Shown: positions 25,629-39,678, counted from the stretch's first letter. The stretch is 64,000 nucleotides of DNA from Patescibacteria group bacterium (GCA_041659765.1 JBAZXR010000001.1:595338-659337), one strand, 5' to 3'. Notes: generated by a model from the sequence alone, not told the origin. Translations and numbers: made by a program.

Positions 25629-25763
25629 GTGGCTGAATGGTAGAAGGTAGAGGGTAGAAGGGCAATGCGTAAATCCCCAATACATTCAATGCTTCCCCAG
25701 GTTATCCACAGGAGTTTGACCTGGCATAAGCAGAGTTCCACTACTATGCCGCCGGGAGGAATC

Positions 25764-26469: not shown

Positions 26470-26597
26470 GAATACGTATCAAGAGTCCGTCGAGGGTCCT
26501 GGCCCAATGACACGGCAGCAGCCTACGCAAGTAAGGTGCTAACTCCAGCCCTAACGGGAAAGATAATTATTATCCGACGCCGTCATGGCGTTTTTTT
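26470..26597 (+). promoter_or_regulatory. SAM-I (S-box) riboswitch with terminator, upstream of metK
   Basis: UAUCAAGAG...CGAGGGUCCUGGCCCAAUGACACGGCAGC...GGUGCUAACUCCAGC...GGGAAAGAUAA carries the conserved SAM-I blocks. It is followed by the expression-platform hairpin ACGCC-GUCAU-GGCGU plus U7, which abuts the metK ATG. Confidence 0.85.
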
Positions 26598-27557
26598 ATG
26601 CTCACTCCCCTAATCTATACCGTCGAATCCGTCACAGTTGGTCATCCGGACAAAGTCTGCGATCAGATTTCCGATGCAATTCTCGACGCGTGTGTAAAGC
26701 AAGACCCAAATAGTCGTGTCGCGATTGAAACATTCGGCAGTCATGGACTCTTAGTTCTTGGCGGTGAGATTACGACGAAGGCGAAGGTCGATTATTCAGC
26801 GATCGCGCTCAAGGTCTACAGAGATATTGGTTACACGGATGATCTCAAAGTCCTCGTCCATATCACCGAGCAGTCCCCGGACATCGCCCAAGGCGTAGAC
26901 ACCGGCGGCGCAGGTGACCAAGGAATTATGTACGGCTTTGCCACGGACGAAACGCCAGAGTTCCTCCCCCGCGGCCTGGTGTACGTTCGACAATTAACCG
27001 ACAAACTGACGGAACTCAGAAAATCCGGCGAGGTTGCTTGGTTGAAACCCGACGGTAAGGCGCAGATTACGATGCAAAACGGCAAAGCGACGGTCGTTTT
27101 AATCAGCACACAGCATGACGAAGCCGTCTCTCAGGATGAGATCAGAAAAACCCTCATCGAAAAAGTCATCTACGCCGTCATCCCCGAAGAATATCGCGCA
27201 CTAGGAATGGAAATCCTCACAAACCCCACGGGCAAGTTTGTCATTGGCGGATTTGCTGCAGACACCGGACTCACTGGTCGAAAGTTGGCCGTCGACTCCT
27301 ATGGCGGAATCGTCGCCCACGGCGGTGGTGCTACAGCCGGCAAAGACATGACCAAGGTCGACAGATCAGCCGCCCGCAAAGCCCGCGAAGTCGCCCTCGA
27401 CATTGTTAAATCTGGAAAGGCGCACGAGTGTTTGATTTCCGTGGCCTACGCAATTGGCAAAGCCGAACCCGTCATGCTTTGGGCACAAAACGAAAACCAA
27501 GAAGACATCACCCCATTACTCGCCGGAATTAGTTTCTTGCCGAAGGATCTCCGCTAG
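26598..27557 (+). CDS. metK: S-adenosylmethionine synthetase (short form, 319 aa)
   Basis: ESVTVGHPDKVCDQISDAILDA, GAGDQGIMYGFATDETPEFLP and GGGATAGKD motifs. About 60 aa shorter at the C-terminus than typical bacterial MetK. Confidence 0.9.
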   Translation: MLTPLIYTVESVTVGHPDKVCDQISDAILDACVKQDPNSRVAIETFGSHGLLVLGGEITTKAKVDYSAIALKVYRDIGYTDDLKVLVHITEQSPDIAQGVDTGGAGDQGIMYGFATDETPEFLPRGLVYVRQLTDKLTELRKSGEVAWLKPDGKAQITMQNGKATVVLISTQHDEAVSQDEIRKTLIEKVIYAVIPEEYRALGMEILTNPTGKFVIGGFAADTGLTGRKLAVDSYGGIVAHGGGATAGKDMTKVDRSAARKAREVALDIVKSGKAHECLISVAYAIGKAEPVMLWAQNENQEDITPLLAGISFLPKDLR

Positions 27558-27805
27558 TCCTCTCTCGTGAATCTCCGCACCGACTCCCCTTTCAACTCAA
27601 CCATCTCTCCCCATTCTCGCAATGGTCGCGTAAAAAATGGCGCGTCGGGGTTTTCGTACAGAGGTTCGTACACCACCATCCACTCGGCGTCATTCGAGTG
27701 CTCGGCGAGCAAGATAATCCGATACAGGTCGCCTTTGTAATGGCGATACGTCTCCCCCGCCTTGGGGGCGTCGGGTGGGAGGGGTGGGACGGGGTCTCCT
27801 CTCAT
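27554..27805 (-). CDS. DUF1653 family protein
   Basis: YRHYKGDLYRIILLAEHSNDAEWMVVYEPLY....FTRPLREW is the DUF1653 signature. Its ATG overlaps the TGA of the upstream ORF (ATGA coupling). Confidence 0.75.
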   Translation of the reverse strand: MRGDPVPPLPPDAPKAGETYRHYKGDLYRIILLAEHSNDAEWMVVYEPLYENPDAPFFTRPLREWGEMVELKGESVRRFTRED

Positions 27806-29154
27806 AGTGCAGCGAGAAATTTCTTGTAGATCTCAACCATCGCCAGCGTGTCCAGTTCGCAATAGGCGAGCATGTCTTTGCGTAGCTGAGATTTTGTTTC
27901 GGGAGCCGCCCCGGGATCAGTCAGAACGGGCCAGCTAGCAGAGGCCGTGCCGCCTTCATGAATCGTCAGGGCGTCGTAGGAGAGCTCGGGACACATGACG
28001 GGGAGCACTTTTTTGAGTGATGCGCTGCCACCAAAACGGGAGTCGTCGTAATAGCCCTTACTCACGATAGTCTTCAAATCAAACATTCGCTCATTCAAAG
28101 ACGACATGAACGCGTCATACTTCGGCACCATGCGGGCGAGCTCGGCGTTGCGTGCAGCTTCAAAGGACATATGCCAAACGATCACACCCCCTGTGTCACC
28201 AACATGTCCCCGCAGGGATTCGACGAGAGTCGCGGCCGGGTCTGCGAACTCGTCCATCAAAAATTCGACGTGCTCGAGTCCCGCGTCCGGCGACGTGAGA
28301 ATATGAATCGAGTATTGAAACGGGCATTGCTGATACGGTCGATATCCGTCAAACGGCGGAATAGCGGGTCCGTAGGTTTCGTAGTCGAGGAAATAGAGGG
28401 GATACTCGAGCGCGTCCAGCTCTTCACGAATAGCCTCCTTGTTCACGGTCAGCCCAGGTTTCCCCGAAGACACAATGGGTTCTTCGACCTCGCCTTCGAT
28501 AGCCTGCAAGATACACGCCCGGAATTCGCATTTGGCCGGATCAGTACAATTTTTAATAATGTCGAGGTTCGGCTCAGTCCCCCATCCCAAAACCGCCAGC
28601 GCACGAGGGATTTCCTTCCTGCACAACGGCAACAATTCTTCGACCTCATGCGTCACGTCCGTCCGCGCGAACAATTTCTCTGGGTCGATTGCACCCTGCT
28701 TCACATACTGGTTGTCGATGTGGACGTGGACGGTTTTTCTAATCTTCAGCCCCGCATCTTCTAGACATACGCGCTGGAACGCCATATCCATCAAATGCTC
28801 CGGCTTCACCTGGGTAGTGCTTTTCACCTCTAGCAGATCTCAAGAATCATCGCTATTCTTTTTCAGGATATCCGCGCGACACGTGATCTCCCCGGCCATA
28901 AACGTTGGCTGGAGTAAAACCTTCGCACCGTCAGCGATAGCCTTCTCCGTATTCCCCGCCCCAGCCTTCCCAAAGCCCATCACGTTCACGCCCTTTGGGT
29001 ATAACTTCATCGCCCACGCATCCACCTCGTTGCCGGTTGTGAAAGCTCTCAATGTATCGGCGTCGAACGCCGGCGCAAGATCGGGGCGTTGCTTGAAGAG
29101 CCAAAGTTCGCACGAGCAACGAAGAAATTGGTTGAAGTTAGACTTCGAGATCAT
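27802..29154 (-). pseudogene. DUF2779-family (PD-(D/E)XK nuclease + RNase-H-like exonuclease) gene interrupted by a single in-frame TGA
   Basis: The N-part (28840-29154, MISKSNFNQFLRCSCELWLFKQ...RADILKKNSDDS*) and the C-part (27802-28827, DLLEVKSTTQ...LYFLDYETYGPAIPPFDG...) are in the same frame. A TGA at 28840-28842 falls between the D and the E-V-K of the nuclease motif. This is either a pseudogene or a sequencing error. Confidence 0.65.
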
Positions 29155-29164
29155 AGGCTATCGA

Positions 29165-29491
29165 TCAGTTACTCAACGATCGGAGATATTCTTTAACCGG
29201 CTCTGCTACTGTTTCTTCGCTTATGTTTCTCTCAATACAATAAGCCGTCTTGAACCAAACTGACAGATCCTTCGCTCCTCTACTCGAGTTACAACTTCCA
29301 CAGCAAATAGCGGCATAAAACTTCTCATTAAAAGGGCCGTCATTATGAAAGTGCTCAATAGTAGCTCTATCTTTGTAGTGATCCTTCGTGCCGATGCCAC
29401 CACCCATCACCTTGCGACAATAAACACACGCACTGTCTCTTGCGCGAATCTCCGCCTCGTCACTAGCTGAGATACCGTAGGTGTTGGACAT
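29165..29491 (-). CDS. HNH endonuclease-domain protein
   Basis: CVYCRK...DHYKDRATIEHFHNDG...NEKFYAAICCGSCNSSRG shows the C-x2-C ... H-x-H ... N ... C-x2-C HNH/zinc-finger pattern. It lies 11 nt upstream of DUF2779 on the same strand. Confidence 0.65.
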   Translation of the reverse strand: MSNTYGISASDEAEIRARDSACVYCRKVMGGGIGTKDHYKDRATIEHFHNDGPFNEKFYAAICCGSCNSSRGAKDLSVWFKTAYCIERNISEETVAEPVKEYLRSLSN

Positions 29492-29593
29492 AAATAATAG
29501 CGGGGGCTACGAAGCACCATCTTACAATCGAAAGCTCGAGGAGCAGCGGAGGAAGGAGGTGAAGTGAGATTTGGAGAGCATAGACATGACCAA

Positions 29594-30310
29594 CTATACA
29601 ACCTTTCCATTCAGATAATTCGTAGCGATGTCCCGAAAAACTGCCTCAGAGAGTTCGAAGTTGAATAAACGGAAAAGTTCATCTGTGACATTCCTCGCCA
29701 AAAGGAAGATCTCTTCATCATTATTCAATTTATCAATATTCGTAGTTAAAACCGTCTCACTCGTTTTCTCTCTAACGCATAAGTATTCCCAAAAAAGCAT
29801 TCGTGAAGAATTTGCCGACATCAGCCGTCTCCCTTGAAGTTGATGGTGACGAACGGTGATAGATACGGTGGTGTCGCCGGCGATCTTTGCTAAGCGAAAA
29901 AAATTACGGAGATACATCAATGTTTCCGTCACTCGAATGATACGCGTATCGAAAAATACCGCGTTCTCTTTACGCTCATCTTCAAAGATTGTTTTGTATA
30001 AATAGAAAGCCCCGATCGCGTTCCAAGCCCAAAAATCTAAACTTCCTCGGCTTTTGTCGAATACCCGAGCAACGTGACCATCACGATCAGGTTGCGGCTT
30101 AAACTCACTACGATCCAAAAATACAGCAATCGGCCAACCAAACGTCTTAATTGTAGAATCCTTTGCCCAAGTGAGGATATCTCTCTTTTGAAGGCTAAGC
30201 TCATTATCAAAAAATACCTCAACCTCCATAATCCCTCTTTTTTTATCCAACGGAATGGACCTAGCTTCAGTCTTCATTCTATCGAACCACTGTTTTTGAT
30301 TTGCGGTCAT
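29594..30310 (-). CDS. hypothetical protein (238 aa), candidate partner/antitoxin of the upstream RelA/SpoT-domain protein
   Basis: No recognisable domain and no HD motif. Its start overlaps the stop of the RelA/SpoT gene by 4 nt (ATGA). Confidence 0.5.
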   Translation of the reverse strand: MTANQKQWFDRMKTEARSIPLDKKRGIMEVEVFFDNELSLQKRDILTWAKDSTIKTFGWPIAVFLDRSEFKPQPDRDGHVARVFDKSRGSLDFWAWNAIGAFYLYKTIFEDERKENAVFFDTRIIRVTETLMYLRNFFRLAKIAGDTTVSITVRHHQLQGRRLMSANSSRMLFWEYLCVREKTSETVLTTNIDKLNNDEEIFLLARNVTDELFRLFNFELSEAVFRDIATNYLNGKVV

Positions 30311-31071
30311 AAACCATTCTTTTTATCATCCTGCTCTCTAGCCTGCTTTTGTACAAGTTGCCACACCTTTTCACACCCCCTATGAATCAAAGAAATTGCG
30401 TCGCTCAGGTCCTTGGAGTCACCTTTCTCGTCTCTGCCATATAGATATTTCCTATCTTGCACTGCCCAGGCATCACCCAAAACCGTTCTAAGTTGAATTT
30501 CACAATGCAAATCACGCGCGATTCGGTCGTATCTCATTGTCTTGGTTACAGTAAAATGGATTGCGTCATAAAACGGACTTGATCGTCTATCCAGTGTAGC
30601 AGTGTCAGTTTTATTGTTAGTCAATCCTAAAGGAGGTTGATTCCTCATTGGAGTCTTAGTGTCGAATACACCATGTTCATCTTTCGATGTTTTTACACAC
30701 TTACCCTCAAGGCGATATGCCTTCAATTCATTGTCTAATCGGTCAGCAAATTTCCAGAGATCGTCTGCACAATTCAACGTAACCCTTACCCCTGCTATGT
30801 CTTTAAAAGAAAATAGACTTTTATACTTTTTCTTCCCAGAGTTTTTATTCCCATCATTATAATTCTCTAAAATCTTACCGATGTCTTTTATATTCTTTCT
30901 AGCGCCGATTGTCTCCACATCGATTCCAGCCTCCTCACACTCCTCACAGATCTGGTTTACAAACCGTAGAATATTTCTTTGCAACTTTAAATACACAGGA
31001 GCCCAAACCACATATTCCTCTCTAATCTTATCCTCAGCCTTCATAAAACCCGCTTGGGTCAATCGCTCCAA
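30307..31071 (-). CDS. RelA/SpoT-domain nucleotidyltransferase (small alarmone synthetase-like; possible toxSAS)
   Basis: FKDIAGVRVTLNCADDL and HCEIQLRTVLGDAWAVQDRKYLYG match the (p)ppGpp-synthetase fold motifs (D-x-A-G-x-R ... EIQ(I/L)RT). 254 aa. Overlaps the 3' end of the hsdM-S gene by 13 nt. Confidence 0.7.
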   Translation of the reverse strand: MERLTQAGFMKAEDKIREEYVVWAPVYLKLQRNILRFVNQICEECEEAGIDVETIGARKNIKDIGKILENYNDGNKNSGKKKYKSLFSFKDIAGVRVTLNCADDLWKFADRLDNELKAYRLEGKCVKTSKDEHGVFDTKTPMRNQPPLGLTNNKTDTATLDRRSSPFYDAIHFTVTKTMRYDRIARDLHCEIQLRTVLGDAWAVQDRKYLYGRDEKGDSKDLSDAISLIHRGCEKVWQLVQKQAREQDDKKNGL

Positions 31072-33482
31072 AGCTTCGCGATCGTTTCTTTAGTTTTTTG
31101 CTCGTAAATCTCAATCAGTTTCTTGGCAGATTCCATGAGCACACGCTCAGCCTCGATTTTTTCCACTATTTGTTTTTGGATGACAAGAGGTGGAAGAGGG
31201 ATTATTACATTTCTAACGATCTCGGAATTAAGATTTCTAACTACCCCACCCGTAGCGGCGTTCTCGAATTGTTCCACCACAATATCTGAACTCAGAATGT
31301 AGTACAGAAAATCTTTTCCGATCTTCTTAGCGTCTTCGGTTAAGCGCAACCAACCGTCATGAATATATCCGTCAATTTTCATTATATATGGACGCCCAAA
31401 ACTCATTGAGTTTGAAAGTACAAAATCACCAACAACGACTTTACGAGATTTTTCTGCGCCCTCCTTTGTCACTCTCTCCGCCGTATGAGTAATATATTTA
31501 TCAGCATTTTTTGTATCCCCAATTTTTACCCAATTAAATCCATCTGAGCTCTCTGTTATAAACTTATCTATCGGGCGCGGCGATGCCCCTCTTTCGATTT
31601 TACAAACTTCGCTGATTTTTACCTTCTCCCACTCTAAACCGATGTCAATTTTTGGTTTCCAATTTTGAGCGATTTGTTTCGCGCCAGCTATGATACCTGC
31701 GTAGCCGCTCAACTCCGCCACGATTTGCTCTTGAAATTCGAGGGAAGGAAGAGGAATCTTGAATTTAGAATATTGAGATATCCAGTATCGCTTGTGCTCA
31801 CCGGGAGTAAACGGGATATTCTGCATTACGTAATAGACATAGCGTATGTTCGCCAACTCTTTTTTTGTGTGTAGTATCTTCATTGCGGAAGACTTCACCT
31901 TGAACGGAAAATCGACAAATTTAGTTGCGGTTGTAAAATCATCAAATATTATCACTGGCAACCCCTCACGAAAAATACCCGTCGTCTCGTTGGTGTGGCC
32001 CAATACAAACGTCTTCCCTGCAGTGAGAACGGGGGTCAGATATTCATCTTTATAATCAACGGATTCGACCAAATACTTAGTGGGCTGCTCGTAGTCCAGA
32101 ACCTCGCCCAATTCTACCATCGGCCATTTTACGTTCGAGTGATCCATAGCGACCCGATATCGATCCGCGGAGAGATTGTAATCATCATTCTTCGCTATGT
32201 CCGTTTTTTCTACATAAATAACGTGCGCATCTTGAGCTTTCTTTCCCTTGGTCCATTCTCTCAAGATATTGACGGATGCAGGTAGATCGTTCTTGCCGAT
32301 GGGTCTACGAGTAGCACCGAGGTCGAATCCATCGTTTTCTATCTTAATAAATACTATTTCATTGAGCGTTTTGGCCAAAGTCACGTCAAAGAAAAGGATG
32401 CTTGTTTTGACGCCGGCGTATGGATTAAATACACCACCGGGAAGACTCACGACAGCAAAAAGACCATCTTCTACCAGATTCTTTCTTAGTTGTTTATACG
32501 CGCTACCCGACTGAAAGATGACCCCTTCTGGCACAATCACGCCCGCCCGGCCGCCTGGTCGCAAGTGGCTCATGATGTAATCGACGAAAAGCACCTCCGC
32601 ACGGTTAGATTGAACTCCAAATTTAGTATGCGGCTTAATCCCGCCTTTTGGAGACATGAATGGTGGGTTAGCTAAGATCACATCGAACTTATCGTTCCAA
32701 CGCTCGTCGCTGGAAAGAGAGTCATACTGGAAAATCTTTGGATTCTTAAATTGGTGGAGGTATGTATTTACCTGGGCAATACGAACCATTCCAGGATCTA
32801 TATCGTAACCCTCAAAATTATTCATCAGCTTGCGCTTCTCGTCTGGAGTAAGCGGTTTCTCTTTCTTTTCTGGGTCATCCTTACCATCGTGTTGCTCTAA
32901 AATGTGCCTATACGAGCTCACCAAAAATCCACCCGTTCCACAGGCAGGATCGAGGACCTTATCATCTTTGGTTGGGTTAACTACATCTACAATGAAATCG
33001 ATAATGTGACGCGGCGTGCGAAACTGGCCGGCATCACCCTGGCTAGACATGATCGAAAGAAGGTATTCGTATGCGTTACCAAGTTCTTCGGAATGCGAAT
33101 AATCAAAATAGTTAATTTCATTCAAAAACAAACCGAGAACTTCAGGCGATCTGTATGGCAAAAAAGCGGACTTAAAGATTCCACGAAATAATTCTGGTAG
33201 CTGTTTCGCCTCAGAAAACTTCAGAAGCGCTTCAGAATAGAGATTCATGCGCTCCTGGTTGCCCATACGTTGATCCATGAGGCGCGTCCAAGCGTAACGC
33301 TCGAGCTCACCCACGAAGAAGGACGGATCTCCGCCAGCCTTAATAGCAGCCTGATCCATGTCATCCATGAACTTATAGATAAGTGCGTTGGTGATCTGGT
33401 CAATTTGAGATGTTGGATTTGGCACTACGCCTACCAAAACCTGGCGAGCAGCATCAATGTGGCGTTTTGTTTCGGTATTCAT
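31059..33482 (-). CDS. hsdM: type I restriction-modification fused methyltransferase-specificity protein (HsdM-HsdS fusion)
   Basis: N-terminal N6-adenine MTase (FRTPRHIIDFIVDVV...VLDPACGTGGFLV; ILANPPF) is followed by two target-recognition modules. Each module ends in an HsdS conserved spacer (IPLPSLEFQEQIVAELS and IIPLPPLVIQKQIVEKIEAE). 807 aa. Confidence 0.85.
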   Translation of the reverse strand: MNTETKRHIDAARQVLVGVVPNPTSQIDQITNALIYKFMDDMDQAAIKAGGDPSFFVGELERYAWTRLMDQRMGNQERMNLYSEALLKFSEAKQLPELFRGIFKSAFLPYRSPEVLGLFLNEINYFDYSHSEELGNAYEYLLSIMSSQGDAGQFRTPRHIIDFIVDVVNPTKDDKVLDPACGTGGFLVSSYRHILEQHDGKDDPEKKEKPLTPDEKRKLMNNFEGYDIDPGMVRIAQVNTYLHQFKNPKIFQYDSLSSDERWNDKFDVILANPPFMSPKGGIKPHTKFGVQSNRAEVLFVDYIMSHLRPGGRAGVIVPEGVIFQSGSAYKQLRKNLVEDGLFAVVSLPGGVFNPYAGVKTSILFFDVTLAKTLNEIVFIKIENDGFDLGATRRPIGKNDLPASVNILREWTKGKKAQDAHVIYVEKTDIAKNDDYNLSADRYRVAMDHSNVKWPMVELGEVLDYEQPTKYLVESVDYKDEYLTPVLTAGKTFVLGHTNETTGIFREGLPVIIFDDFTTATKFVDFPFKVKSSAMKILHTKKELANIRYVYYVMQNIPFTPGEHKRYWISQYSKFKIPLPSLEFQEQIVAELSGYAGIIAGAKQIAQNWKPKIDIGLEWEKVKISEVCKIERGASPRPIDKFITESSDGFNWVKIGDTKNADKYITHTAERVTKEGAEKSRKVVVGDFVLSNSMSFGRPYIMKIDGYIHDGWLRLTEDAKKIGKDFLYYILSSDIVVEQFENAATGGVVRNLNSEIVRNVIIPLPPLVIQKQIVEKIEAERVLMESAKKLIEIYEQKTKETIAKLWSD

Positions 33483-33484
33483 AC

Positions 33485-36052
33485 TTATCCTAAATTGGTT
33501 AGCTGATAAGCGTAGTCACGGACATATTGCGGAACTGTAGTTTTGAACCCGTTAAGTTTTTGATAGTCATCGAAATCAAATGAACCACGAACATTAAATT
33601 CGGCCGGCTTGTTCTGCTTTACAATGTCGCGAACCTCTTCGTCCACAATATACGCCTTAAAGAAGTTTTTGGTTGGTTGGTAGTGTTCCTGGTCTACTTC
33701 ATAAATATCCATGAACTTCTGCCACTCTGACTCCAGAACGTCATCCTTCATCTCGAATGTATCTTTTTCACCAAATGCTACCTGCAAAAACTCTCGAACG
33801 GTGATCCGGCGATCAACACCGAAAATTTTACGGATCTTATCAAGGTTAAGGAAGTATTTTGGCTTGTCGAAAATCTGCTTTTTCGCAAAATCCTCGGCGC
33901 CTTCGGTGTCGCCATTACTCCAGAGATTCTTAAGCGTTTCATTGCCTAGCACATCTTCCTCAACAGCACGCTTAAAACCTTCACGATCAATTCGCATGCC
34001 TTCCTCACCGACTGGAGTCTCCGAAATAGTGGCCAGCTCGTCAGAAGTGGCCAAATCCACGATCCCCTTAAATATCTTCTTGCCATTCTCATCTACAAAT
34101 TCTCCCTGCGCTAATTCCTTACCCGTTGCGGTCTTTTTCTCCTCTGCCTTCTTAACTACCGGAAGCTTGATCTTCTCGTCGTACTTGAATTCTTTTTCAA
34201 AATACTCGCACGTGGCAAAGAAATCGAAAAACTTAAACTTGTCTTTAGCTACCGCGATAACATCACTGTCTTTATAATCCTTATGTTCAAACAAATATGT
34301 TCTAGTTCCACGTCCCTTTATCTGAACAAAATCTGCCGGACTAAAAACCGGACGCATTAGACCAATGTTGAGAAGATCCTGACAGTCGTATCCCGTGGTC
34401 ATCATGCCGACAGTAACAACAACGCGTGTCTTGCCCGTATCATATCCCTCCGGCTCCTTTGCATGACCGCCGAGGCGGTTATTCGCAAAATTAATGGTCA
34501 TTTGTTGTGCATCTTGCACCTGAGAAGTAACCTGCATGGCAAAATCAGATTCTCCGTATTGTTTTGGCCACTTTTCAAACGCTAATCTATTGAGAATATT
34601 AGTGACTCGCGCTGCATGTTTCTGTGAGACACAAAAGACAATGGACTTGCCGAATAATTGAACGCCCAATTTTTCTGCCACTGGATCAAAGATGCCGTTA
34701 TCAACAAATGCCTTACACATGGCAATATTCGTTTCTTCGTTGAAAAACTTTCGCTCGTAGTGCTTTGCGCTATATGTCTCGTCGACCGTTTCTCCACTTT
34801 CAGCTGCAGTGTGAACGCTATACCCTTTTTCCGACAACAACTCAGTCGTGATTTCCGTTCTTGCGTCTACTATCACGGGATTAATCAAATACCCATCTTT
34901 TACACCAGACAACAAATCATATCTAAATGTAGGCTCGCCGGATTCGCAGCCGAAGGTCTTGTACGTGCTTAAAAGCACACGTCGCTCATATTCACGCTGA
35001 GTATCCGCGTCCTCAGCGTCTACGCCCTTTAAGTAGTCCTTCGGAGTCGCGGTTAAACCGAGCTTATAGCCAACAAAGTATTCGAATACTGCCCGACTAT
35101 TACCACCAATTGAACGGTGAGCTTCGTCAGAAATCACTAGCTCAAAATCTGTGGGTGAAAATTCTTTCTTATACCGATCACCTGCCATGAAAGATTGAAT
35201 GGTCGAAACCACTACACTCGCATTCTGCCAAGAATCACGGCTCTCTTTATAGATAACACTTCTAAAATCCTTTCCAAGATACTGAGAAAATGCCTTCTGC
35301 GCCTGGTCCTCAAGCTCGATTCTGTCCACTAAGAATAAAACACGACGAGCATTGCCAGATTTCAGGAAAAGCTTAATAACCGCCGCAGAAATAAGTGTCT
35401 TGCCGGTACCCGTCGCCATTTCAAACAAGAATCTTTGTTTTCCCTCCTTGGCTGACTCTTGCAACGCCTTGATTGCCTGTACTTGATACGGACGAAGCTG
35501 TTTAAGATTATTATTTCTCAAAAATTCGCTTCGCGTTTCCGCATCCTTAAATGCTGGATCCTTAAAAAATCCAGGCATCTGCGTATCTACTACATAGTTC
35601 CCATCAACTAACGTTTTTGCTAGTTCGTCAGGATTCGGGGTGTATTTCTCATATTGTGTAATGGAATCCTGAGTGGGAAAACGAGAAATAGTATCAGGAT
35701 TTCCTTGCTTTGTATCCCAAAAATAGTGAATATTCCCATTTGAAAGAATGATAAATCTCGCTCCAACATTCCGAGCATAATTCCTCGCCTGTTCTTTTGC
35801 TGACAAAGGATCAACAGACTCTTTTTTAGCCTCAACCACAACTAATGGCCTACCGTCTTTATCTAAAAGAAGAAAATCTATAAAACCATGAGCCTCATAC
35901 TCAAAATCATCGCCAAGATCAGCGTATTTCACGCCTGGCTCCAGCTGAATATTCGCCCTGCCCTTCTTCTTATCATCCTCAAACCGCCAGCCTGATTCTT
36001 CGAGGAGTTTGTTAATCTTTATTCTAGCCTTAGCCTCTTTTGCATTTGCCAT
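33485..36052 (-). CDS. hsdR: type I restriction enzyme R subunit (N-terminal PD-(D/E)XK nuclease + SF2 helicase)
   Basis: Nuclease motif GFIDFLLLDKDGRPLVVVEAKK. Helicase motifs ATGTGKT, VISDEAHRS and QIKGRGTR. The stop overlaps the hsdM-S start (ATGA). Confidence 0.85.
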   Translation of the reverse strand: MANAKEAKARIKINKLLEESGWRFEDDKKKGRANIQLEPGVKYADLGDDFEYEAHGFIDFLLLDKDGRPLVVVEAKKESVDPLSAKEQARNYARNVGARFIILSNGNIHYFWDTKQGNPDTISRFPTQDSITQYEKYTPNPDELAKTLVDGNYVVDTQMPGFFKDPAFKDAETRSEFLRNNNLKQLRPYQVQAIKALQESAKEGKQRFLFEMATGTGKTLISAAVIKLFLKSGNARRVLFLVDRIELEDQAQKAFSQYLGKDFRSVIYKESRDSWQNASVVVSTIQSFMAGDRYKKEFSPTDFELVISDEAHRSIGGNSRAVFEYFVGYKLGLTATPKDYLKGVDAEDADTQREYERRVLLSTYKTFGCESGEPTFRYDLLSGVKDGYLINPVIVDARTEITTELLSEKGYSVHTAAESGETVDETYSAKHYERKFFNEETNIAMCKAFVDNGIFDPVAEKLGVQLFGKSIVFCVSQKHAARVTNILNRLAFEKWPKQYGESDFAMQVTSQVQDAQQMTINFANNRLGGHAKEPEGYDTGKTRVVVTVGMMTTGYDCQDLLNIGLMRPVFSPADFVQIKGRGTRTYLFEHKDYKDSDVIAVAKDKFKFFDFFATCEYFEKEFKYDEKIKLPVVKKAEEKKTATGKELAQGEFVDENGKKIFKGIVDLATSDELATISETPVGEEGMRIDREGFKRAVEEDVLGNETLKNLWSNGDTEGAEDFAKKQIFDKPKYFLNLDKIRKIFGVDRRITVREFLQVAFGEKDTFEMKDDVLESEWQKFMDIYEVDQEHYQPTKNFFKAYIVDEEVRDIVKQNKPAEFNVRGSFDFDDYQKLNGFKTTVPQYVRDYAYQLTNLG

Positions 36053-36243
36053 AGTCCTGGAGATTCTATCACCGGTCTAAAAACCCCGCCACATCAAGTA
36101 AAGTCAGCTTGCCGACGAGTGCATGCCTTATGCGCAAAGTATCCCCTTCCCCCGAAGCCTATTATCAGCGAGTATAGGCATGGCGGATCGGGAGGTGGTC
36201 GAACCCGCGAAGTCAATTAATATTAACCCCAGTACACACACCT

Positions 36244-36453
36244 ATGACAGACATCAAAGGGAACCAGGACGGACCCGGCGGTCGAAACGAAACGTATAAA
36301 ATCGGTTCGCGCCGTGAAGTCCCCCGAGTGCAGGCAGTACGAGAGGTAAAGGCCGGAACACACGACGGAGCTCATGTGGTCAAAATCAATGGCCGGGAGT
36401 ACGTTCGTGACAATCCGGACAGCTCCAAGCGTGACAACGTCAACCAACGTTAA
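36244..36453 (+). CDS. small hypothetical protein (69 aa)
   Basis: Gly/Arg-rich N-terminus. A conserved-looking HVVKINGREYVRDNPDS core. Followed by a bidirectional terminator. Confidence 0.4.
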   Translation: MTDIKGNQDGPGGRNETYKIGSRREVPRVQAVREVKAGTHDGAHVVKINGREYVRDNPDSSKRDNVNQR

Positions 36454-36561
36454 GGTTAATGGAAAAGCTGCACGAGTAGATAGAGCCCGCTCGGAAGGAG
36501 TAAATGAGGCAGTTGTAATCTGAAAATGGCGCTCGAAAGGTAGCACCTTCCAAAGTCACAC

Positions 36562-36590
36562 AAAACCCCGTCGGCCAGGCGGGGTTTTGC
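36562..36590. terminator. bidirectional terminator
   Basis: AAAACCCCG-TCGGCCAGG-CGGGGTTTT. Confidence 0.6.
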
Positions 36591-36699
36591 TTACGCTCTC
36601 TCTTCATCTTCGCGGTTTTGAAGTCTTCGCCTCCCCTATAAAGGGACTGCTGCGGGTGCCCGCCGTAGTCAGTAAACCTATGGCTTTAAACATCTGCGC

Positions 36700-38256
36700 T
36701 TACTGCGTCTTCTCACCTGTGAGTAAAAAGTCTAACTCGTTGTCAAAGATTCTTTTAAATTCCGATCGTGGATCCGCATGATCAATAATCTGTTTTGCAA
36801 CTAGATGGGCGTATTTATCTTTAATTATTCCCTCAGGATAATTAATCCTGTGATCTACGCTGCATCCAGAAAGTTCAGCATCGAAATCATTCTTCATTTC
36901 ATTATCGTAGTAATCTTCAATCTGCTTCCTTGATAATACAACGAAACGTTTGGCCGCGATATCCACGTTCATCTTCTGCATCTTCTTGTATTCGGGAGTA
37001 TTTTGGTATTCAGGATCAGTGGGGCTATCAATGATAATGCTGTATTTATCGTAGTAAAATGGGTTGCACTTAAGGAGTGTCTGCTCGGTGTTGAACCTTC
37101 GAATGTGTTCTGCAAAAAGTGGTACATTATTTGCCCCTGCGGCTGAAATAAACCCCCAATTCTTCACGATCCCTTTCTTCTTTAATGCGTCAAGCAATTT
37201 TTGAAGACTAGCCTCCTCGAGAAGACAATAATTTTCAACGTAGCCAAAATCCGTCTCGTCAGCCCCCACCATCTTTGCAGCAATATAGTTAACGCTCTGA
37301 TCATCGAACCCGTCGTTGCCTTTCCCCGGATTACCGTGCTCGTCTACGGTTTGTCCGCCATCAATTAAATATACCTTTTGATCTCTTGGAAAACTTCCGG
37401 ATTTCGAAACAATAAATGGCGAATGTGTAGTTACGAAAAACATTGCGTTATTGACTGATGATAAATCGTTTAAGATTTTTGGAACCAATTTTTGATACTC
37501 AGGGTGAAGAGATGTTTCCGGTTCCTCGATGCAGATGATGTGAAAATAATTTGGGACCTCCGGTCTATCGTTCCTTTTGTAGGACTCCAAATCATTGATC
37601 AATTTCTGCAAATTGAAATAAATCGAAATAAGGCGGATTTGTCCAGACGACAATGCCTTGAGATTAATTCTAGAGCCATCTTCAAGAAGTAACTGAATTG
37701 ATTCAACGCCCGCTGCCGATCTCATTACGTTCGTCACGGGAGAGTTGGTGTATCGATGTCTATTAATGAAATCTCTTAGATCACGTTCTAAAATGAAACT
37801 CGGCAACTTATCAAGATTGATCGCGAGACCCTCCTTGTGGGGCAACGTTCGTCTTGTGTCACTGAAATCGAAATATCGGGCAATATCTCCTAGGGGGAGA
37901 GTTGTGGCCCCTCCTTCAGCCTTCTGCATAACAGCTTTCCCATTTTTAATGAGTGAGGGATCCAGATGCACGTTTACTGTATTGCCTATTCCTTCCGGCT
38001 CGTCATATGAATACGAGAAGTTGAAGTCTGGATGGAATACTTCGAGAGGATCGCCAAAGGCCTCGTCGATGTTGGCGTCACTACGATTGTAATATTGGGA
38101 ATTAAAAGCCATCATGATCAATTCGAGAACCGAGCTTTTTCCTGCGCCGTTTTTTCCAATTAAATAATTGACCTTCTTTAATTTTGTAATTTCAAATGAT
38201 GAAGCCTTGATATTTTTATACCCAGAGATACTTAATTTGCTCAACATAAACTCCAT
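36700..38256 (-). CDS. ABC-type AAA ATPase of the OLD/AAA_15-21 family with a possible C-terminal Toprim-like domain (putative anti-phage defence)
   Basis: Walker A LIGKNGAGKSSVLE, ABC signature-like ALSSGQIRLISIY, Walker B IICIEEPETSLHP, H-loop VTTHSP. The C-terminal ~200 aa carry Toprim-like acidic residues (CLLEEAS ... IIIDSPTDPE). Confidence 0.6.
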   Translation of the reverse strand: MEFMLSKLSISGYKNIKASSFEITKLKKVNYLIGKNGAGKSSVLELIMMAFNSQYYNRSDANIDEAFGDPLEVFHPDFNFSYSYDEPEGIGNTVNVHLDPSLIKNGKAVMQKAEGGATTLPLGDIARYFDFSDTRRTLPHKEGLAINLDKLPSFILERDLRDFINRHRYTNSPVTNVMRSAAGVESIQLLLEDGSRINLKALSSGQIRLISIYFNLQKLINDLESYKRNDRPEVPNYFHIICIEEPETSLHPEYQKLVPKILNDLSSVNNAMFFVTTHSPFIVSKSGSFPRDQKVYLIDGGQTVDEHGNPGKGNDGFDDQSVNYIAAKMVGADETDFGYVENYCLLEEASLQKLLDALKKKGIVKNWGFISAAGANNVPLFAEHIRRFNTEQTLLKCNPFYYDKYSIIIDSPTDPEYQNTPEYKKMQKMNVDIAAKRFVVLSRKQIEDYYDNEMKNDFDAELSGCSVDHRINYPEGIIKDKYAHLVAKQIIDHADPRSEFKRIFDNELDFLLTGEKTQ

Positions 38257-38302
38257 TTGATCTTACGCGTTATTAAAAACCGCCACGCAAAGTGACGGTT
38301 TT

Positions 38303-38405
38303 TGGAGGGCCCGGAAGGAATCGAACCTACTTCGGGGCATTGCAGTGCTGACATCGAGGATATCGTCACTGTCAGTGCCTCTTGTCCGCCACTGGACTCG
38401 GGCCC
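38303..38405 (-). tRNA. tRNA-like gene, 103 nt, with a ~29-nt insertion in the anticodon region; one parse gives tRNA-Val(GAC)
   Basis: Minus strand: 7-bp acceptor GGGCCCG/CGGGCCC, discriminator U, encoded CCA, and a canonical T-arm GTAGG-TTCGATT-CCTTC (GGTTCGATTCC). The D-arm is GTCC-AGTGGC-GGAC. Between them, CUGACA pairs with UGUCAG across a 16-nt loop. Removing GTGACGATATCCTCGATGTCAGCACTGCA leaves a 74-nt cloverleaf with anticodon loop CUGACAA. Confidence 0.55.
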
Positions 38406-38514
38406 ATATACCAAGGCTAACACGCATCAATCTTGAGGTCGAGCGACGGAAACGGGGATAACTTATGAAACGCATAAGGGGGCTCCGGGATGACTTCCTG
38501 CTACCATTCTCCCT

Positions 38515-39054
38515 ATGCCCCTCCCTCTCTTCACCTTAAAACGCCACCCCCGCTCCCGAGGCGTTCGTATTCGTATTCGTATTGGGGCTGATGGGCAGTG
38601 TACGGTCACGGCGCATAAACGAGTCCCCGTCTGGATGATCAACCAATTTGTAGAGCAAAAGTCCGCTTGGATCCAAGAACACGTCGCCAAAGCCAAAAGC
38701 AGGCCGCAGAGTTTGCTTCATGGGGGTACGAAGGCGGATTACACTCGCCTAAAAGTACGCGCGCTTGAGCTGGCGCATGCAAGGCTCGAATATTTCAATG
38801 CAGTCTACAAGCTCACCTACAAAAAAGTTTCTATTCGCAATCAAAAAACCCGCTGGGGCAGTTGTACAAGTAATGGGGCGTTGAGTTTTAATTATCGGAT
38901 CGTGCAACTGTCGGCGGAACAGGTTGATTACATCGTTGTTCATGAACTCTGCCACCTGGCGCAGATGAATCACTCGGTGAAGTTTTGGAGGTTGGTTGAG
39001 AAAACTATTCCAGACCACAAACGACTCCGAGCGACGATTAGGAACGCAAAGTAA
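38515..39054 (+). CDS. DUF45/YgjP-family zinc metallohydrolase (M48/SprT-like HExxH)
   Basis: VVHELCHLAQMNHS (HExxH) and a typical DUF45 N-terminus (RIRIRIGADGQCTVTAHKRVP...WI). Proteins of this family are often encoded beside type I R-M systems. Contains an internal (CGTATT)x3 microsatellite. Confidence 0.75.
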   Translation: MPLPLFTLKRHPRSRGVRIRIRIGADGQCTVTAHKRVPVWMINQFVEQKSAWIQEHVAKAKSRPQSLLHGGTKADYTRLKVRALELAHARLEYFNAVYKLTYKKVSIRNQKTRWGSCTSNGALSFNYRIVQLSAEQVDYIVVHELCHLAQMNHSVKFWRLVEKTIPDHKRLRATIRNAK

Positions 39055-39085
39055 AACCCCGCCATTACAGCGGGGATTTTTACTT
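39055..39085. terminator. bidirectional terminator
   Basis: AAAACCCCGC-CATTACAG-CGGGGATTTTTACTTTTT. Confidence 0.65.
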
Positions 39086-39358: not shown

Positions 39359-39360
39359 AG

Positions 39361-39678
39361 TTACATCACATCCTCATCCTCCCCCTTATACGTCTTTTTT
39401 TCTTTCACCGTGTAACCGTCTCTTGATTTGAGTGCTTCCATGATTCGGCGGACACCGTCAGCAATACCGGTGATGAGAGCGACGTTGCCGTCAAACTTCC
39501 GCTTCATGCCCATGATGGAGTTTTCGAGGTCGTCGAGTTTTACTTTTACTTCGTCAACAAGTCCGTGCAGGCGCTTGAGTAGTCCTGCAGCCTGGAAGAG
39601 AAGCCAGCAAAGAAAAGCAGTAAACCACAATGCACAAAACGCAAGCACTATGAATAGAATGTCTTGGGTTCCCAGCAT
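39361..39678 (-). CDS. small membrane/coiled-coil protein (DUF948-like architecture)
   Basis: N-terminal TM (ILFIVLAFCALWFTAFLCWLLF) followed by a coiled-coil. Confidence 0.45.
   Translation of the reverse strand: MLGTQDILFIVLAFCALWFTAFLCWLLFQAAGLLKRLHGLVDEVKVKLDDLENSIMGMKRKFDGNVALITGIADGVRRIMEALKSRDGYTVKEKKTYKGEDEDVM

What the first reader, a model, noticed from the sequence alone, without database searches (positions are those of the whole stretch)
27802..39054. AT-richer defence island inserted beside an atypical tRNA-like gene
Between metK/DUF1653 and the pheST block, the minus strand carries a contiguous array: DUF2779 nuclease (interrupted), an HNH protein, an unknown 238-aa protein, a RelA/SpoT-domain protein, a fused HsdM-HsdS, and HsdR. 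Then follow a 69-aa ORF, an OLD-like ABC ATPase, a tRNA-like gene and a DUF45/YgjP metallohydrolase. DUF45/YgjP is a family repeatedly found next to type I R-M systems. Most genes overlap by 4-26 nt (ATGA couplings), which suggests one or two operons. By eye, 29.6-38.2 kb is noticeably more A+T-rich than the flanking housekeeping genes. tRNA genes are classic island insertion sites, but no integrase is present.
Basis: partly seen in the sequence, partly recalled or inferred. Interest (0 to 1): 0.75.

Follow-up and report, generated by a model that had tools for sequence, protein, structure and literature searches.

The report
Defence-gene hotspot in a Patescibacteria genome
This stretch of an ultra-small (CPR/Patescibacteria) bacterium's genome is a swap-in/swap-out slot for anti-virus genes; besides an ordinary restriction system it holds an undescribed two-gene alarm-molecule module and an odd, interrupted tRNA-Cys-like gene that was not the island's insertion site.

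Summary
The genes and the A+T-rich dip are real. 1-kb windows in 29-41 kb have GC 0.41-0.48 against a flank mean of 0.519 (z -1.9 to -5.0). The dip is a mosaic and runs to 41.0 kb, not 39.05 kb.

Synteny shows a variable hotspot. The more distant relatives have pheT-105aa-dnaE directly. Two closer relatives keep pheT-105aa-YgjP but carry different low-GC defence cargo there.

The window's cargo is a type I R-M system with fused HsdM-HsdS, a solitary PtuA/AriA-like ABC ATPase, and a RelA/SpoT-type small alarmone synthetase (SAS) coupled to the 238-aa protein.

That 238-aa protein ("X") belongs to a widespread family with no hit in the four model libraries searched (420 clusters). In other proteins X is the C-terminal domain, fused to the same SAS (16 clusters), TIR/SEFIR (at least 24 of 82), Schlafen, GGDEF or kinase domains. 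I infer a regulator of suicide effectors, CapRel-like in logic.

The "tRNA-like gene" (38303-38405, minus strand) is tRNA-Cys(GCA)-derived and carries a 31-nt insert that masks the anticodon. It is absent from the three relatives that retain YgjP. No integrase and no repeat of its 3' end were found in the regions examined, so integration at a tRNA is not supported.

The parts
22092..25685 (-). dnaE (DNA polymerase III alpha), the left core anchor of the variable region
   Evidence: 73% identical to the ORF that directly follows pheT in the Ca. Uhrbacteria locus L001. tblastn synteny agrees.
25665..26393 (+). NT5C-like 5'-nucleotidase with host-like GC. It lies inside the segment that is absent from L001.
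   Evidence: Pfam NT5C, E 5.1e-15.
26473..27557 (+). SAM (S-box) riboswitch at 26473-26569, followed by metK at 26598-27557
   Evidence: Rfam RF00162, 56.3 bits, above the gathering score. GC is 0.53.
27554..27805 (-). DUF1653 protein. Its start overlaps the DUF2779 stop codon by 4 nt.
   Evidence: Pfam DUF1653, E 7.2e-20. GC is 0.58.
27802..29154 (-). DUF2779 (PD-(D/E)xK-type) gene interrupted by a single in-frame TGA at 28840-28842. GC is host-like.
   Evidence: Pfam DUF2779, E 4.1e-36. The sequence reads ...DDS*DLLEVK. The same split appears in the 100% identical Logan contig L101.
29165..29491 (-). Small HNH/EndoVII-like protein (108 aa). It is the first low-GC gene on the left side.
   Evidence: Pfam Endonuclease_7, E 4.5e-4. 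Weak PtuB and PHROG HNH hits. GC is 0.456.
29594..30310 (-). 'X' protein (238 aa), the conserved partner of the SAS. It belongs to a domain family that none of the four libraries searched models. I propose it is a regulator/sensor (antitoxin-like).
30307..31071 (-). RelA/SpoT-type small alarmone synthetase (SAS). The annotated start is probably the ATG at 31044. Its stop overlaps the X start codon by 4 nt.
   Evidence: Pfam RelA_SpoT. Catalytic motifs are conserved in alignment A2. The A2 profile hits RelP/RelQ at 4e-11 and CapRel at 3e-4. The fold of a fused homologue is closest to RelP/RelQ, TM 0.72-0.77.
31059..33482 (-). Fused HsdM-HsdS: an N6-adenine methyltransferase followed by two target-recognition domains
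   Evidence: Pfam N6_Mtase 2.2e-53 and Methylase_S in 2 stretches. PADLOC MTase_I 6e-100 and Specificity_I 2.8e-54. The NPPF and GTGGF motifs can be read.
33485..36052 (-). HsdR: a PD-(D/E)xK nuclease joined to an SF2 helicase motor, resembling the EcoAI family (type IB)
   Evidence: Pfam HSDR_N and ResIII 6e-42. PADLOC REase_I 4.6e-56. NCBIfam EcoAI/FtnUII 1.1e-66, below the curated cutoff.
36053..36699 (.). Host-like-GC spacer (0.527). It holds the DUF3892 ORF (36244-36453, +) and a hairpin/terminator at 36562-36592. The hsdR promoter region is presumably here.
36700..38256 (-). Solitary ABC-type ATPase (AAA_15/AAA_21) resembling PtuA, AriA and GajA, with an uncharacterised C-terminal domain. 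No partner gene is present.
   Evidence: Pfam and PADLOC hits. The PDB sequence search hits PtuA and AriA weakly. The family is rare, 13 hits. Homologue L081 has a downstream deoxyribosyltransferase-like partner that is absent here.
38270..38299 (-). Hairpin followed by a U-run (intrinsic-terminator-like), immediately 3' of the tRNA-like gene
   Evidence: Read directly from the sequence. The terminator scan did not list it.
38303..38405 (-). tRNA-Cys(GCA)-derived gene, 103 nt. It has a 7-bp acceptor stem, U73 and an encoded CCA. A 31-nt insert (38346-38376) lies between positions 31 and 32.
   Evidence: Standard tools do not detect it. It is absent from the relatives.
38515..39054 (+). YgjP/DUF45 metallohydrolase (HExxH motif). 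It is a conserved anchor next to type I R-M cargo in relatives.
   Evidence: Pfam YgjP-like, 2.1e-41. 961 homologues were found, the closest sharing 80-89% identity. It sits beside different R-M systems in L102 and L105.
39361..39678 (-). 105-aa small membrane protein, a core gene that follows pheT in all relatives examined
   Evidence: tblastn hits at 50% (L001) and 83-84% (L102, L105).
39697..41024 (-). Two low-GC ORFs of unknown function (205 aa and 242 aa) between the 105-aa gene and pheT.
   Evidence: No family hits. GC is 0.46 and 0.42. They are absent from L001, L102 and L105.
41040..43460 (-). pheT, the right core anchor
   Evidence: 83% amino-acid identity to L102 and L105.

Best explanation
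The region is a defence-gene hotspot in a Patescibacteria (Uhrbacteria-related) chromosome, lying between pheT/105-aa/YgjP and dnaE. It has been filled piecemeal with lower-GC foreign cassettes.

The current cargo:
1. A type I restriction-modification system whose methylase and specificity subunits are fused (HsdR plus HsdM-S).
2. Directly downstream on the same strand, with short intergenic gaps, a two-gene module: a RelA/SpoT-type small alarmone synthetase (SAS) and a 238-aa partner, 'X'.
3. A solitary PtuA/AriA-like ABC ATPase that has lost its effector partner or never had one.
4. Small unknown ORFs.

Proposed mechanism for SAS-X (inferred):
- X holds the SAS inactive.
- An infection-linked cue sensed by X releases or activates the SAS.
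- The SAS then consumes ATP to make (p)ppGpp/(p)ppApp-type nucleotides and arrests the infected cell.
- This is the split-gene form of a fused SAS-X protein, and it is analogous in logic to CapRel and to partner-gated toxSAS systems.

The tRNA-like gene is a tRNA-Cys-derived element carried within the variable region. Its 31-nt insert base-pairs with the anticodon loop and masks it, so the primary transcript cannot decode. It is not the island's attachment site.
For: Shown:
- Composition. Island 1-kb windows have z = -2.9 to -5.0 against 48 flank windows (mean 0.519, sd 0.022). Low gene-level GC and GC3 are confined to HNH through hsdR, the ATPase, and the 205/242-aa ORFs.
- Synteny, distant relatives. 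L001 and L002 have pheT-105aa-dnaE-421aa-thrS with nothing in between.
- Synteny, close relatives. L102 (PheT 83%) has pheT-105aa-Zeta-Fic-YgjP-[HsdM, RhuM, Shedu SduA, EcoR124-type HsdR]. L105 has pheT-105aa-DUF3800-YgjP-[RhuM, SLFN-ATPase, HsdM, HsdS]. Their cargo is also low in GC, 0.29-0.45 against a core of about 0.50.
- R-M calls are strong.
- SAS-X is a conserved pair. Every SAS homologue whose context was fetched (L095-L100) is followed by an X homologue, in otherwise unrelated neighbourhoods.
- In L100 the next gene after X is an HsdM, a second adjacency to R-M genes.
- 16 clusters of about 470-aa proteins fuse the same SAS subfamily to X (E 1e-45 to 1e-73 against the SAS profile).
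- X is also the C-terminus of TIR/SEFIR (at least 24 of 82), Schlafen-AlbA2, GGDEF, kinase, ParA-like and deoxyribosyltransferase proteins. Of these, 21 hit the PADLOC bSEFIR model through their N-terminal domain.
- SAS catalytic motifs are intact. Its fold is closest to RelP/RelQ.

Precedent: partner-gated alarmone-making toxSAS defence (PANGU preprint 10.64898/2026.04.06.716658) and the fused toxSAS CapRel (PMC9712102).
Against: - No experiment supports the model. Toxicity of the SAS, neutralisation by X and any trigger are all inferred.
- The AF2 model of a fused SAS-X protein gives no reliable inter-domain geometry (pTM 0.58).
- X has several invariant polar residues (E110, R123, E129, plus D92, R126 and R161). 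These could indicate an enzyme or a ligand-binding effector rather than a sensor.
- The SAS resembles housekeeping RelP/RelQ more than known toxSAS proteins, so a physiological stringent-response role is not excluded.
- PADLOC support for the SAS itself is weak (PDC-S33, 2.5e-5).
- The host-like-GC genes inside the variable segment (metK, NT5C, DUF2779, YgjP) show that part of it is rearranged native DNA, not an island.
- The relatives are only 50-83% identical in PheT, so the order of events is uncertain.
Confidence: 0.72

Rival explanations
1. One reading: a single integrative genomic island that inserted site-specifically next to (into the 3' end of) a tRNA gene and later lost its integrase.
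For: A tRNA-derived gene is present at 38303-38405. The region has foreign composition. tRNA genes are common integration sites (general knowledge).
Against: - The tRNA-like gene is internal. Low-GC DNA lies on both sides of it, with host-like DNA in between.
- Its 3' end is not repeated anywhere in the window, even allowing 3 mismatches. No flanking direct repeats were found.
- None of the ORFs scanned in 25.7-41 kb matched an integrase or recombinase family.
- The gene is absent beside YgjP in L102, L104 and L105, yet those loci still carry islands.
- The dip is a mosaic of at least three blocks.
Confidence: 0.05
2. SAS-X is not a defence or toxin module. It is the organism's housekeeping alarmone (stringent-response) synthetase with a regulatory partner, and sits next to the R-M genes by chance.
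For: - The SAS is closest in sequence and fold to RelP/RelQ.
- In L098 it sits among nucleotide-metabolism genes (NUDIX, kinases).
- Patescibacteria have reduced regulatory repertoires (general knowledge).
Against: - The family is rare and patchy, with 9 SAS hits among 5.8 billion sequences.
- It has low GC inside an island.
- It occurs in unrelated contexts, twice beside type I R-M genes.
- X is shared with TIR/SEFIR, Schlafen and deoxyribosyltransferase effector architectures that match PADLOC defence models.
Confidence: 0.13
3. The tRNA-like gene is a functional part of a defence system. For example, it could be a decoy or sensor RNA, or a replacement tRNA-Cys working with the adjacent ATPase or with a tRNA-targeting SAS.
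For: - It lies 47 nt upstream of the ATPase gene (its 3' end at 38303, the ATPase start at 38256) on the same strand.
- It has an encoded CCA end and its own terminator-like hairpin.
- Its fold is unusually stable (z -3.9).
- Some toxSAS proteins pyrophosphorylate tRNA CCA ends, and PtuAB/PARIS effectors target tRNAs (literature knowledge; PMC9712102 for CapRel).
Against: - ATPase homologues with upstream sequence available (L081, L082) and the SAS-X loci (L095-L100) have no tRNA-like element.
- A hairpin terminator separates it from the ATPase gene.
- The SAS resembles alarmone synthetases, not tRNA pyrophosphokinases.
- No homologue of the RNA was found in the metagenome, viral or phage searches.
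Confidence: 0.07

Closest known systems
Type I restriction-modification systems (EcoAI/type IB-like HsdR)
   Same: HsdR has an N-terminal PD-(D/E)xK nuclease and an SF2 motor. The methylase has N6-adenine motifs. Two target-recognition domains are present. All genes lie on one strand with short gaps, and a YgjP/DUF45 gene is nearby.
   Different: HsdM and HsdS are one 807-aa polypeptide. HsdR is short (855 aa) and scores below the NCBIfam equivalog cutoffs. An SAS-X module follows on the same strand.
CapRel (fused toxSAS toxin-antitoxin/sensor; PMC9712102) and toxSAS TA modules
   Same: It has a RelA/SpoT synthetase-fold effector paired with, or in 16 homologue clusters fused to, a C-terminal partner domain. 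It sits in a defence island. The module is mobile and patchily distributed.
   Different: The partner domain X (about 230 aa, alpha/beta) is unrelated to CapRel's pseudo-ZFD. The SAS is closer to RelP/RelQ than to CapRel or FaRel2, so alarmone synthesis is more likely than tRNA pyrophosphorylation. In the window the two parts are separate genes.
PANGU type I (NAP sensor plus GRel toxSAS that makes pppGpp; preprint 10.64898/2026.04.06.716658)
   Same: A two-gene system in which a partner protein controls an alarmone-synthesising SAS-type effector. The SAS fold resembles RelQ, which is tetrameric.
   Different: The partner here gives no Pfam hit of any kind, so it is not a recognisable nucleoid-associated protein. 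No NAP gene was seen in any SAS-X context.
bSEFIR and TIR single-gene defence proteins (Millman et al. 2022; preprint 10.1101/2022.05.11.491447)
   Same: 21 of 82 X-containing fusion proteins have an N-terminal SEFIR domain that matches the PADLOC bSEFIR model (best E 1.5e-73). Their layout is effector followed by a C-terminal domain.
   Different: The window protein has no SEFIR or TIR domain. The matches to the bSEFIR model rest on the SEFIR domain alone (model positions 36-216 of 412), so the canonical bSEFIR C-terminus is probably a different domain.
Septu (PtuA-PtuB), PARIS (AriA-AriB), Gabija (GajA) and OLD ATPases
   Same: The ATPase has an ABC-type AAA_15/AAA_21 head with intact Walker A, signature and Walker B motifs. 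The best PADLOC and PDB hits are AriA, PtuA and GajA.
   Different: There is no adjacent HNH (PtuB), DUF4435/TOPRIM (AriB) or helicase (GajB), and no TOPRIM model hit. The only HNH gene is 7 kb away. The closest homologue, L081, pairs instead with a deoxyribosyltransferase-like gene.
Intron-containing tRNA genes (group I introns in Patescibacteria tRNAs, PMC13011429; archaeal BHB introns)
   Same: It is a tRNA gene that standard annotation tools miss because of an intervening sequence in the anticodon arm. The insert pairs with the anticodon loop, as pre-tRNA introns do.
   Different: The insert is only 31 nt, too short for a group I intron. It sits at position 31/32, and both junctions lie inside helices with no bulge-helix-bulge motif. 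No Rfam intron model hits it.

Membership tests
Type I R-M system | HsdR with a nuclease domain and an SF2 translocase | tested here: met
   HSDR_N/HSDR_N_2, ResIII 6e-42, PADLOC REase_I 4.6e-56
Type I R-M system | N6-adenine methyltransferase HsdM plus an HsdS with two TRDs | tested here: met
   N6_Mtase 2.2e-53; Methylase_S in two stretches; Specificity_I hits at residues 452-600 and 617-790
Type I R-M system | Three separate subunits (R, M, S) | tested here: not met
   M and S are one 807-aa ORF, so this is a fused variant.
toxSAS toxin-antitoxin / CapRel-like | RelA/SpoT synthetase fold with intact catalytic motifs | tested here: met
   The D-x-x-G-x-R, Y-x-x-x-H and E-I-Q-x-R-T motifs are invariant in A2. 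RelP/RelQ hits at 4e-11.
toxSAS toxin-antitoxin / CapRel-like | A conserved adjacent or fused cognate partner | tested here: met
   X follows the SAS in all 4 independent contexts. 16 clusters are fused.
toxSAS toxin-antitoxin / CapRel-like | Toxicity of the SAS and its neutralisation by the partner | not testable with these tools
   Requires expression experiments.
toxSAS toxin-antitoxin / CapRel-like | Membership of a described toxSAS subfamily (FaRel, FaRel2, PhRel, PhRel2, CapRel, GRel) | tested here: inconclusive
   CapRel scores only 3e-4 by sequence and 3e-5 by fold, and FaRel2 2.6e-3. RelP/RelQ score better. No subfamily HMMs were available.
PANGU type I | A nucleoid-associated-protein (YejK-like) partner gene | tested here: not met
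   X has no Pfam hit, and no NAP gene appears in the contexts.
OLD-family nuclease | ABC ATPase fused to a TOPRIM nuclease domain | tested here: inconclusive
   The ATPase head is present. No TOPRIM or DUF4435 model hits. The C-terminal domain has conserved acidic residues (E348, E447) only.
Septu / PARIS / Gabija | An adjacent partner gene (PtuB HNH, AriB TOPRIM or GajB helicase) | tested here: not met
   The neighbours are a tRNA-like gene and a convergent DUF3892 ORF.
Canonical bacterial tRNA | Detected as a cloverleaf by ARAGORN (default) or by the Rfam tRNA model | tested here: not met
   0 tRNAs. No tRNA hit at E<=10.
tRNA-Cys (after removal of the insert) | Cloverleaf, GCA anticodon and U73 discriminator | tested here: met
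   Deleting the 31 nt gives a default-threshold ARAGORN call of tRNA-Cys(GCA); U73 and CCA are encoded. Caveat: deleting 29 nt instead gives Ala or Val calls, and ARAGORN's intron mode is noisy, with 149 hits at ps80 and 4 at ps90 across the window.
Group I or BHB tRNA intron | A ribozyme core of about 200 nt or more, or a bulge-helix-bulge at both splice sites | tested here: not met
   The insert is 31 nt and both junctions lie within helices. No Rfam hit.
tRNA-targeting integrative island | An integrase, plus a direct repeat of the tRNA 3' end at the far boundary | tested here: not met
   The 3'-end motif occurs once even with 3 mismatches allowed. No flanking repeats. No integrase or recombinase family among the ORFs scanned.
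bSEFIR defence protein | An N-terminal SEFIR domain | tested here: not met
   The window X protein has no PADLOC or Pfam hit. Only fused relatives carry SEFIR.

The most novel reading that the evidence does not exclude
The 103-nt gene at 38303-38405 is this bacterium's working tRNA-Cys. Its 31-nt, non-group-I, non-BHB intervening sequence at position 31/32 would then be removed by a tRNA processing or splicing route not known in bacteria. Alternatively, it is a purpose-built anticodon-masked tRNA mimic used in defence.

A second reading is separate and more probable (about 0.5, interest about 0.7). X would be a previously undescribed sensor/regulator domain that gates interchangeable suicide effectors (SAS, TIR/SEFIR, Schlafen, GGDEF, kinase) across bacteria.
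Probability: 0.12. Interest if true: 0.85.

Novelty: new variant of a known kind. Interest (0 to 1): 0.58.

Why it matters
- It documents a conserved defence hotspot (pheT-105aa-YgjP) in Patescibacteria. These organisms have tiny genomes, and their immune repertoires are thought to be sparse and dominated by R-M systems.
- It links an orphan 238-aa ORF to a large protein family with no model in the four libraries searched (at least 420 clusters at 50% identity). That family is wired to classical immune effector domains (TIR, SEFIR, Schlafen, RelA/SpoT).
- This gives a concrete, testable candidate for a new sensor/regulator module, and for a new split-or-fused toxSAS-type system that probably makes alarmones.
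- It flags a tRNA-Cys-like gene with a short anticodon-masking insert. If that gene is functional, it would challenge the view that bacterial tRNA introns are only self-splicing ribozymes.

Tried and rejected
- tRNA att-site model: no repeat of the tRNA 3' end and no flanking direct repeats. Rejected.
- Search for homologues of the tRNA-like RNA:
  - The metagenome scan with a D-arm/T-loop pattern returned only an unrelated tRNA-Ser.
  - The viral scan with the 3' 21-mer returned unrelated Trp, Met, Lys and Arg tRNAs.
  - blastn against phages found nothing.
- Group I or BHB intron: rejected on insert length and structure. The Patescibacteria tRNA-intron paper covers only group I introns in tRNA-Asn and tRNA-Asp.
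- ARAGORN intron mode at low thresholds is noisy: 149 calls in the window at ps80, and 10 spurious calls in L105 at ps85. I did not rely on it.
- tRNA-like gene plus ATPase as a conserved pair: rejected.
- tRNA-like gene plus SAS-X as a conserved pair: rejected.
- Septu (ATPase plus HNH): the two genes are 7 kb apart and the HNH hits are marginal. Rejected.
- AF2 of a fused SAS-X protein, run to see the domain interface: pTM 0.58, uninformative.
- Exact-protein look-ups of PheT and the ATPase: not on record.
- Logan contig L101 is 100% identical to the window, so it is not an independent check of the in-frame TGA.

Full report
**Source organism.** The window comes from a Patescibacteria (CPR) metagenome-assembled genome. 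The ATPase, SAS and X proteins are 100% identical to NCBI entries from 'Patescibacteria group bacterium' (locus tags WC813_03400 and WC813_03405; MFA5947047.1) on an 897,219-bp contig. The nearest species-level PheT match among the reference genomes is a Ca. Uhrbacteria MAG at 50% identity.

**Checking the observation: genes.**
- DUF2779 is one reading frame broken by a single TGA (…DDS*DLLEVK…).
- The 'HNH' call rests on marginal scores.
- The RelA/SpoT assignment is weak for the single sequence (27.1 bits). It becomes solid with a family profile: RelP/RelQ at E 4e-11, with all synthetase motifs invariant.
- HsdM and HsdS are fused into an 807-aa protein with two TRDs.
- HsdR resembles the EcoAI family.
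- The ATPase is an AAA_15/AAA_21 ABC ATPase whose best matches are AriA, PtuA and GajA. No TOPRIM model hits it, so 'OLD-like' remains unproven.

**Checking the observation: composition.** Forty-eight flanking 1-kb windows average GC 0.519 (sd 0.022). Windows from 29 to 41 kb fall to 0.41-0.48, giving z values from -1.9 to -5.0. Tetranucleotide distance rises in parallel. The dip is a mosaic.

| Segment | GC | Character |
|---|---|---|
| 29165-36052 | 0.432 | low |
| 36053-36699 (DUF3892 spacer) | 0.527 | host-like |
| 36700-38256 | 0.407 | low |
| 38257-39678 (tRNA-like, YgjP, 92-aa, 105-aa) | 0.501 | host-like |
| 39679-41039 | 0.435 | low |

The DUF2779, DUF1653 and metK genes are host-like.

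**Synteny.** In Ca. Uhrbacteria L001, and in L002, the order is pheS-pheT-[105-aa membrane ORF]-dnaE-421aa-thrS. DnaE is 73% identical to the window's copy, and nothing corresponding to window 25.7-41.0 kb lies in between.

Searching with YgjP found much closer relatives.
- L102 has PheT 83%, the 105-aa protein 83% and YgjP 81% identical. Its order is pheT-105aa-Zeta toxin-Fic-YgjP, then on the other strand HsdM, RhuM, a 447-aa ORF, Shedu (SduA) and an EcoR124-type 1018-aa HsdR.
- L105 reads pheT-105aa-DUF3800-YgjP, then RhuM, an SLFN-AlbA2/ATPase, HsdM and HsdS.
- In both relatives the cargo has lower GC than the core, 0.29-0.45 against about 0.50.

Three genomes thus share the anchors but carry three different type I R-M systems and different accessory defence genes. 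This is a defence hotspot with cassette turnover.

**The tRNA-like gene: what it is.** The sequence at 38303-38405 (minus strand) has a perfect 7-bp acceptor stem, a D arm, the window's only GGTTCGATTCC T-loop motif, a U73 discriminator and an encoded CCA. A hairpin followed by a U-run comes directly after it. It folds far better than shuffled controls (-44.8 kcal/mol, z -3.9).

Standard tools miss it. The reason is a 31-nt insert (38346-38376) between positions 31 and 32. Deleting those 31 nt gives a default-threshold ARAGORN call of tRNA-Cys(GCA), with the anticodon loop CUGCAAU. U73 together with GCA matches the known identity elements for cysteinyl-tRNA synthetase (established knowledge). 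The alternative 29-nt deletions give Ala or Val calls, but these conflict with G3:C70 and U73.

**The tRNA-like gene: what it can and cannot do.**
- In the unprocessed RNA, the 5' half of the insert pairs with the anticodon loop. The extended-arm fold scores -43.0 kcal/mol, against -32.1 for a canonical anticodon stem with a separate insert hairpin. The primary transcript therefore cannot decode.
- The insert is far too short for a group I intron, and neither junction lies in a bulge, so it is not a BHB intron.
- The element is absent next to YgjP in L102, L104 and L105.
- It is absent upstream of ATPase homologues and from the SAS-X loci.
- No relative was recovered from the metagenome, IMG/VR or phage collections.

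I conclude that it is a lineage-specific, tRNA-Cys-derived element inside the variable region. Whether it is a processed tRNA, a tRNA mimic or a decaying gene cannot be settled here. It is not an attachment site, because there is no repeated 3' end, no flanking repeat and no integrase among the ORFs scanned.

**The SAS-X module: a conserved pair.** This is the main new result. Only nine SAS homologues were found among 5.8 billion sequences. In every context fetched (L095-97, L098-99, L100), the SAS gene is followed immediately by a 240-249-aa homologue of the window's 238-aa ORF. The surrounding genes differ: RtcB/LigT in one case, NUDIX and kinases in another, and an HsdM in L100. In the window the two genes overlap by 4 nt.

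**The SAS-X module: the X family.** A full HMMER scan of 1.84 billion cluster representatives with X found 420 clusters (272 at E<=1e-10). In most of the longer hits, X is the C-terminal domain of about 230 aa.

A Pfam scan of 82 such proteins gave these N-terminal domains:

| N-terminal domain | Members (of 82) |
|---|---|
| TIR_2 | 24 |
| SEFIR | 17 |
| RelA_SpoT | 15 |
| TIR | 11 |
| Schlafen AlbA_2 | 3 |
| ParA-like | 3 |
| Nuc_deoxyrib_tr | 2 |
| GGDEF | 1 |
| Ser/Thr kinase | 1 |
| HipA_N | 1 |

The TIR_2, SEFIR and TIR rows are overlapping sets.

The PADLOC scan gave bSEFIR 21 (best 1.5e-73), PDC-S66 12 and PDC-S33 11. The bSEFIR matches come from the SEFIR domain alone.

A profile of the window-type SAS matches the N-terminal halves of 16 fused proteins of about 470 aa (15 over the full SAS length, P0034 in part), at E 1e-45 to 1e-73. 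The window therefore carries the split form of a fused SAS-X protein.

**The SAS-X module: structure of X.** X has no model in Pfam, NCBIfam, PADLOC or PHROGs. AlphaFold predicts it with pLDDT 95.5 and pTM 0.92. It has no close solved relative.
- Foldseek gave nothing at E<=1e-3. The top weak hits are TBP and the TBP-like domains of RnlA.

X was not found in plasmid, phage or IMG/VR collections.

**Mechanism (inferred).** A domain that recurs at the C-terminus of many alternative toxic or signalling enzymes is, by analogy with CapRel and many Abi/STAND-type systems, a regulatory or sensing module rather than an effector. A cluster of invariant polar residues (E110, R123 and E129, with D92, R126 and R161 nearly invariant) suggests a conserved ligand or surface rather than a fast-evolving binder of phage proteins.

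The SAS fold is closest to the alarmone-making RelP/RelQ (TM 0.72-0.77, E about 2e-9). It is much further from the tRNA pyrophosphokinases CapRel (3e-5) and FaRel2 (2.6e-3). I therefore favour ATP-consuming (p)ppNpp synthesis as the output. The partner-activated GRel toxSAS of the PANGU preprint works this way, but here the partner is not a nucleoid protein. The AF2 model of a fused homologue did not resolve the domain interface (pTM 0.58). The gating step therefore remains a hypothesis.

**Other cargo.** The ATPase family is rare, with 13 hits. Its closest homologue, L081, is followed by a nucleoside-deoxyribosyltransferase-like gene. That gene has no counterpart in the window, where the ATPase is followed by a host-like spacer and a convergent DUF3892 ORF. 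The ATPase is therefore probably an orphaned or incomplete system. The 205-aa and 242-aa ORFs next to pheT are low in GC and have no detectable family.

**Verdict.** 'Defence island' is supported, and strengthened by three-way synteny. 'Inserted beside a tRNA' is not supported. The R-M system and the island itself are ordinary. The SAS-X module and the X domain family are a new variant of partner-gated or fused toxSAS/TIR-type immunity and are worth testing. The interrupted tRNA-Cys-like gene remains an unexplained oddity.

Noticed in passing
window 26473-27557: An S-box SAM riboswitch (56.3 bits) lies directly upstream of an unusually short MetK (319 aa). Both lie within the segment that is absent between pheT and dnaE in the Uhrbacteria relative, yet their GC is host-like.
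   Followed up: partly
window 28840-28842: A single in-frame TGA splits DUF2779 just before its D-L-L-E-V-K (PD-(D/E)xK-like) motif. It could mark a pseudogene, be read through, or be an assembly error. The only other assembly found (L101) is 100% identical, so it is not an independent check.
   Followed up: partly
window 36562-36592 and 39049-39079: Two GC-rich hairpin/terminator elements form a 31-nt, 74%-complementary inverted repeat. They bracket the ATPase, the tRNA-like gene and YgjP. The likeness could come from shared terminator function or could mark cassette borders.
   Followed up: no
window 15001-18000: A second region with lowered GC (0.47-0.49) and strong positive AT skew (0.23-0.33). 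It contains large ORFs (588 aa, 376 aa, 249 aa) with no Pfam hits.
   Followed up: partly
window 25665-26393 (+) versus 25686-26276 (-): Overlapping ORFs on opposite strands. The plus-strand ORF is an NT5C-like 5'-nucleotidase (E 5e-15). The 196-aa minus-strand ORF is probably spurious.
   Followed up: yes
L095:236-4292, L097:124-4713: In one lineage the SAS-X pair sits directly after LigT (2H phosphoesterase) and the RNA ligase RtcB, and is flanked by 165-aa and 198-aa (apparently membrane-spanning) ORFs with no Pfam hit. This may be a link between RNA repair and SAS-X.
   Followed up: no
L081:146-2113: The closest non-identical homologue of the window's ATPase (50% identity) is followed 4 nt later by a nucleoside 2-deoxyribosyltransferase-like gene. 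This may be an undescribed ATPase-plus-effector pair, of which the window retains only the ATPase.
   Followed up: partly
L102:343-13051 and L105:1-11226: Relatives carry Shedu (SduA, GC 0.29), Fic, Zeta toxin, RhuM, SLFN-AlbA2/HATPase and DUF3800 genes, plus two other type I R-M variants, at the same pheT-YgjP hotspot.
   Followed up: partly
L083:1908-8542: A more distant homologue of the ATPase (28% identity) lies beside McrBC and a DUF5655 gene, and a protein with a faint WYL-domain hit follows it. This is another defence-island context for the ATPase family.
   Followed up: no
window 38303-38405 versus L086-L094: The exact 21-nt T-arm/acceptor 3' strand of the tRNA-like gene also occurs in viral-contig tRNA-Trp, tRNA-Met, tRNA-Lys and tRNA-Arg genes. 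This shows that the motif alone does not indicate homology.
   Followed up: yes
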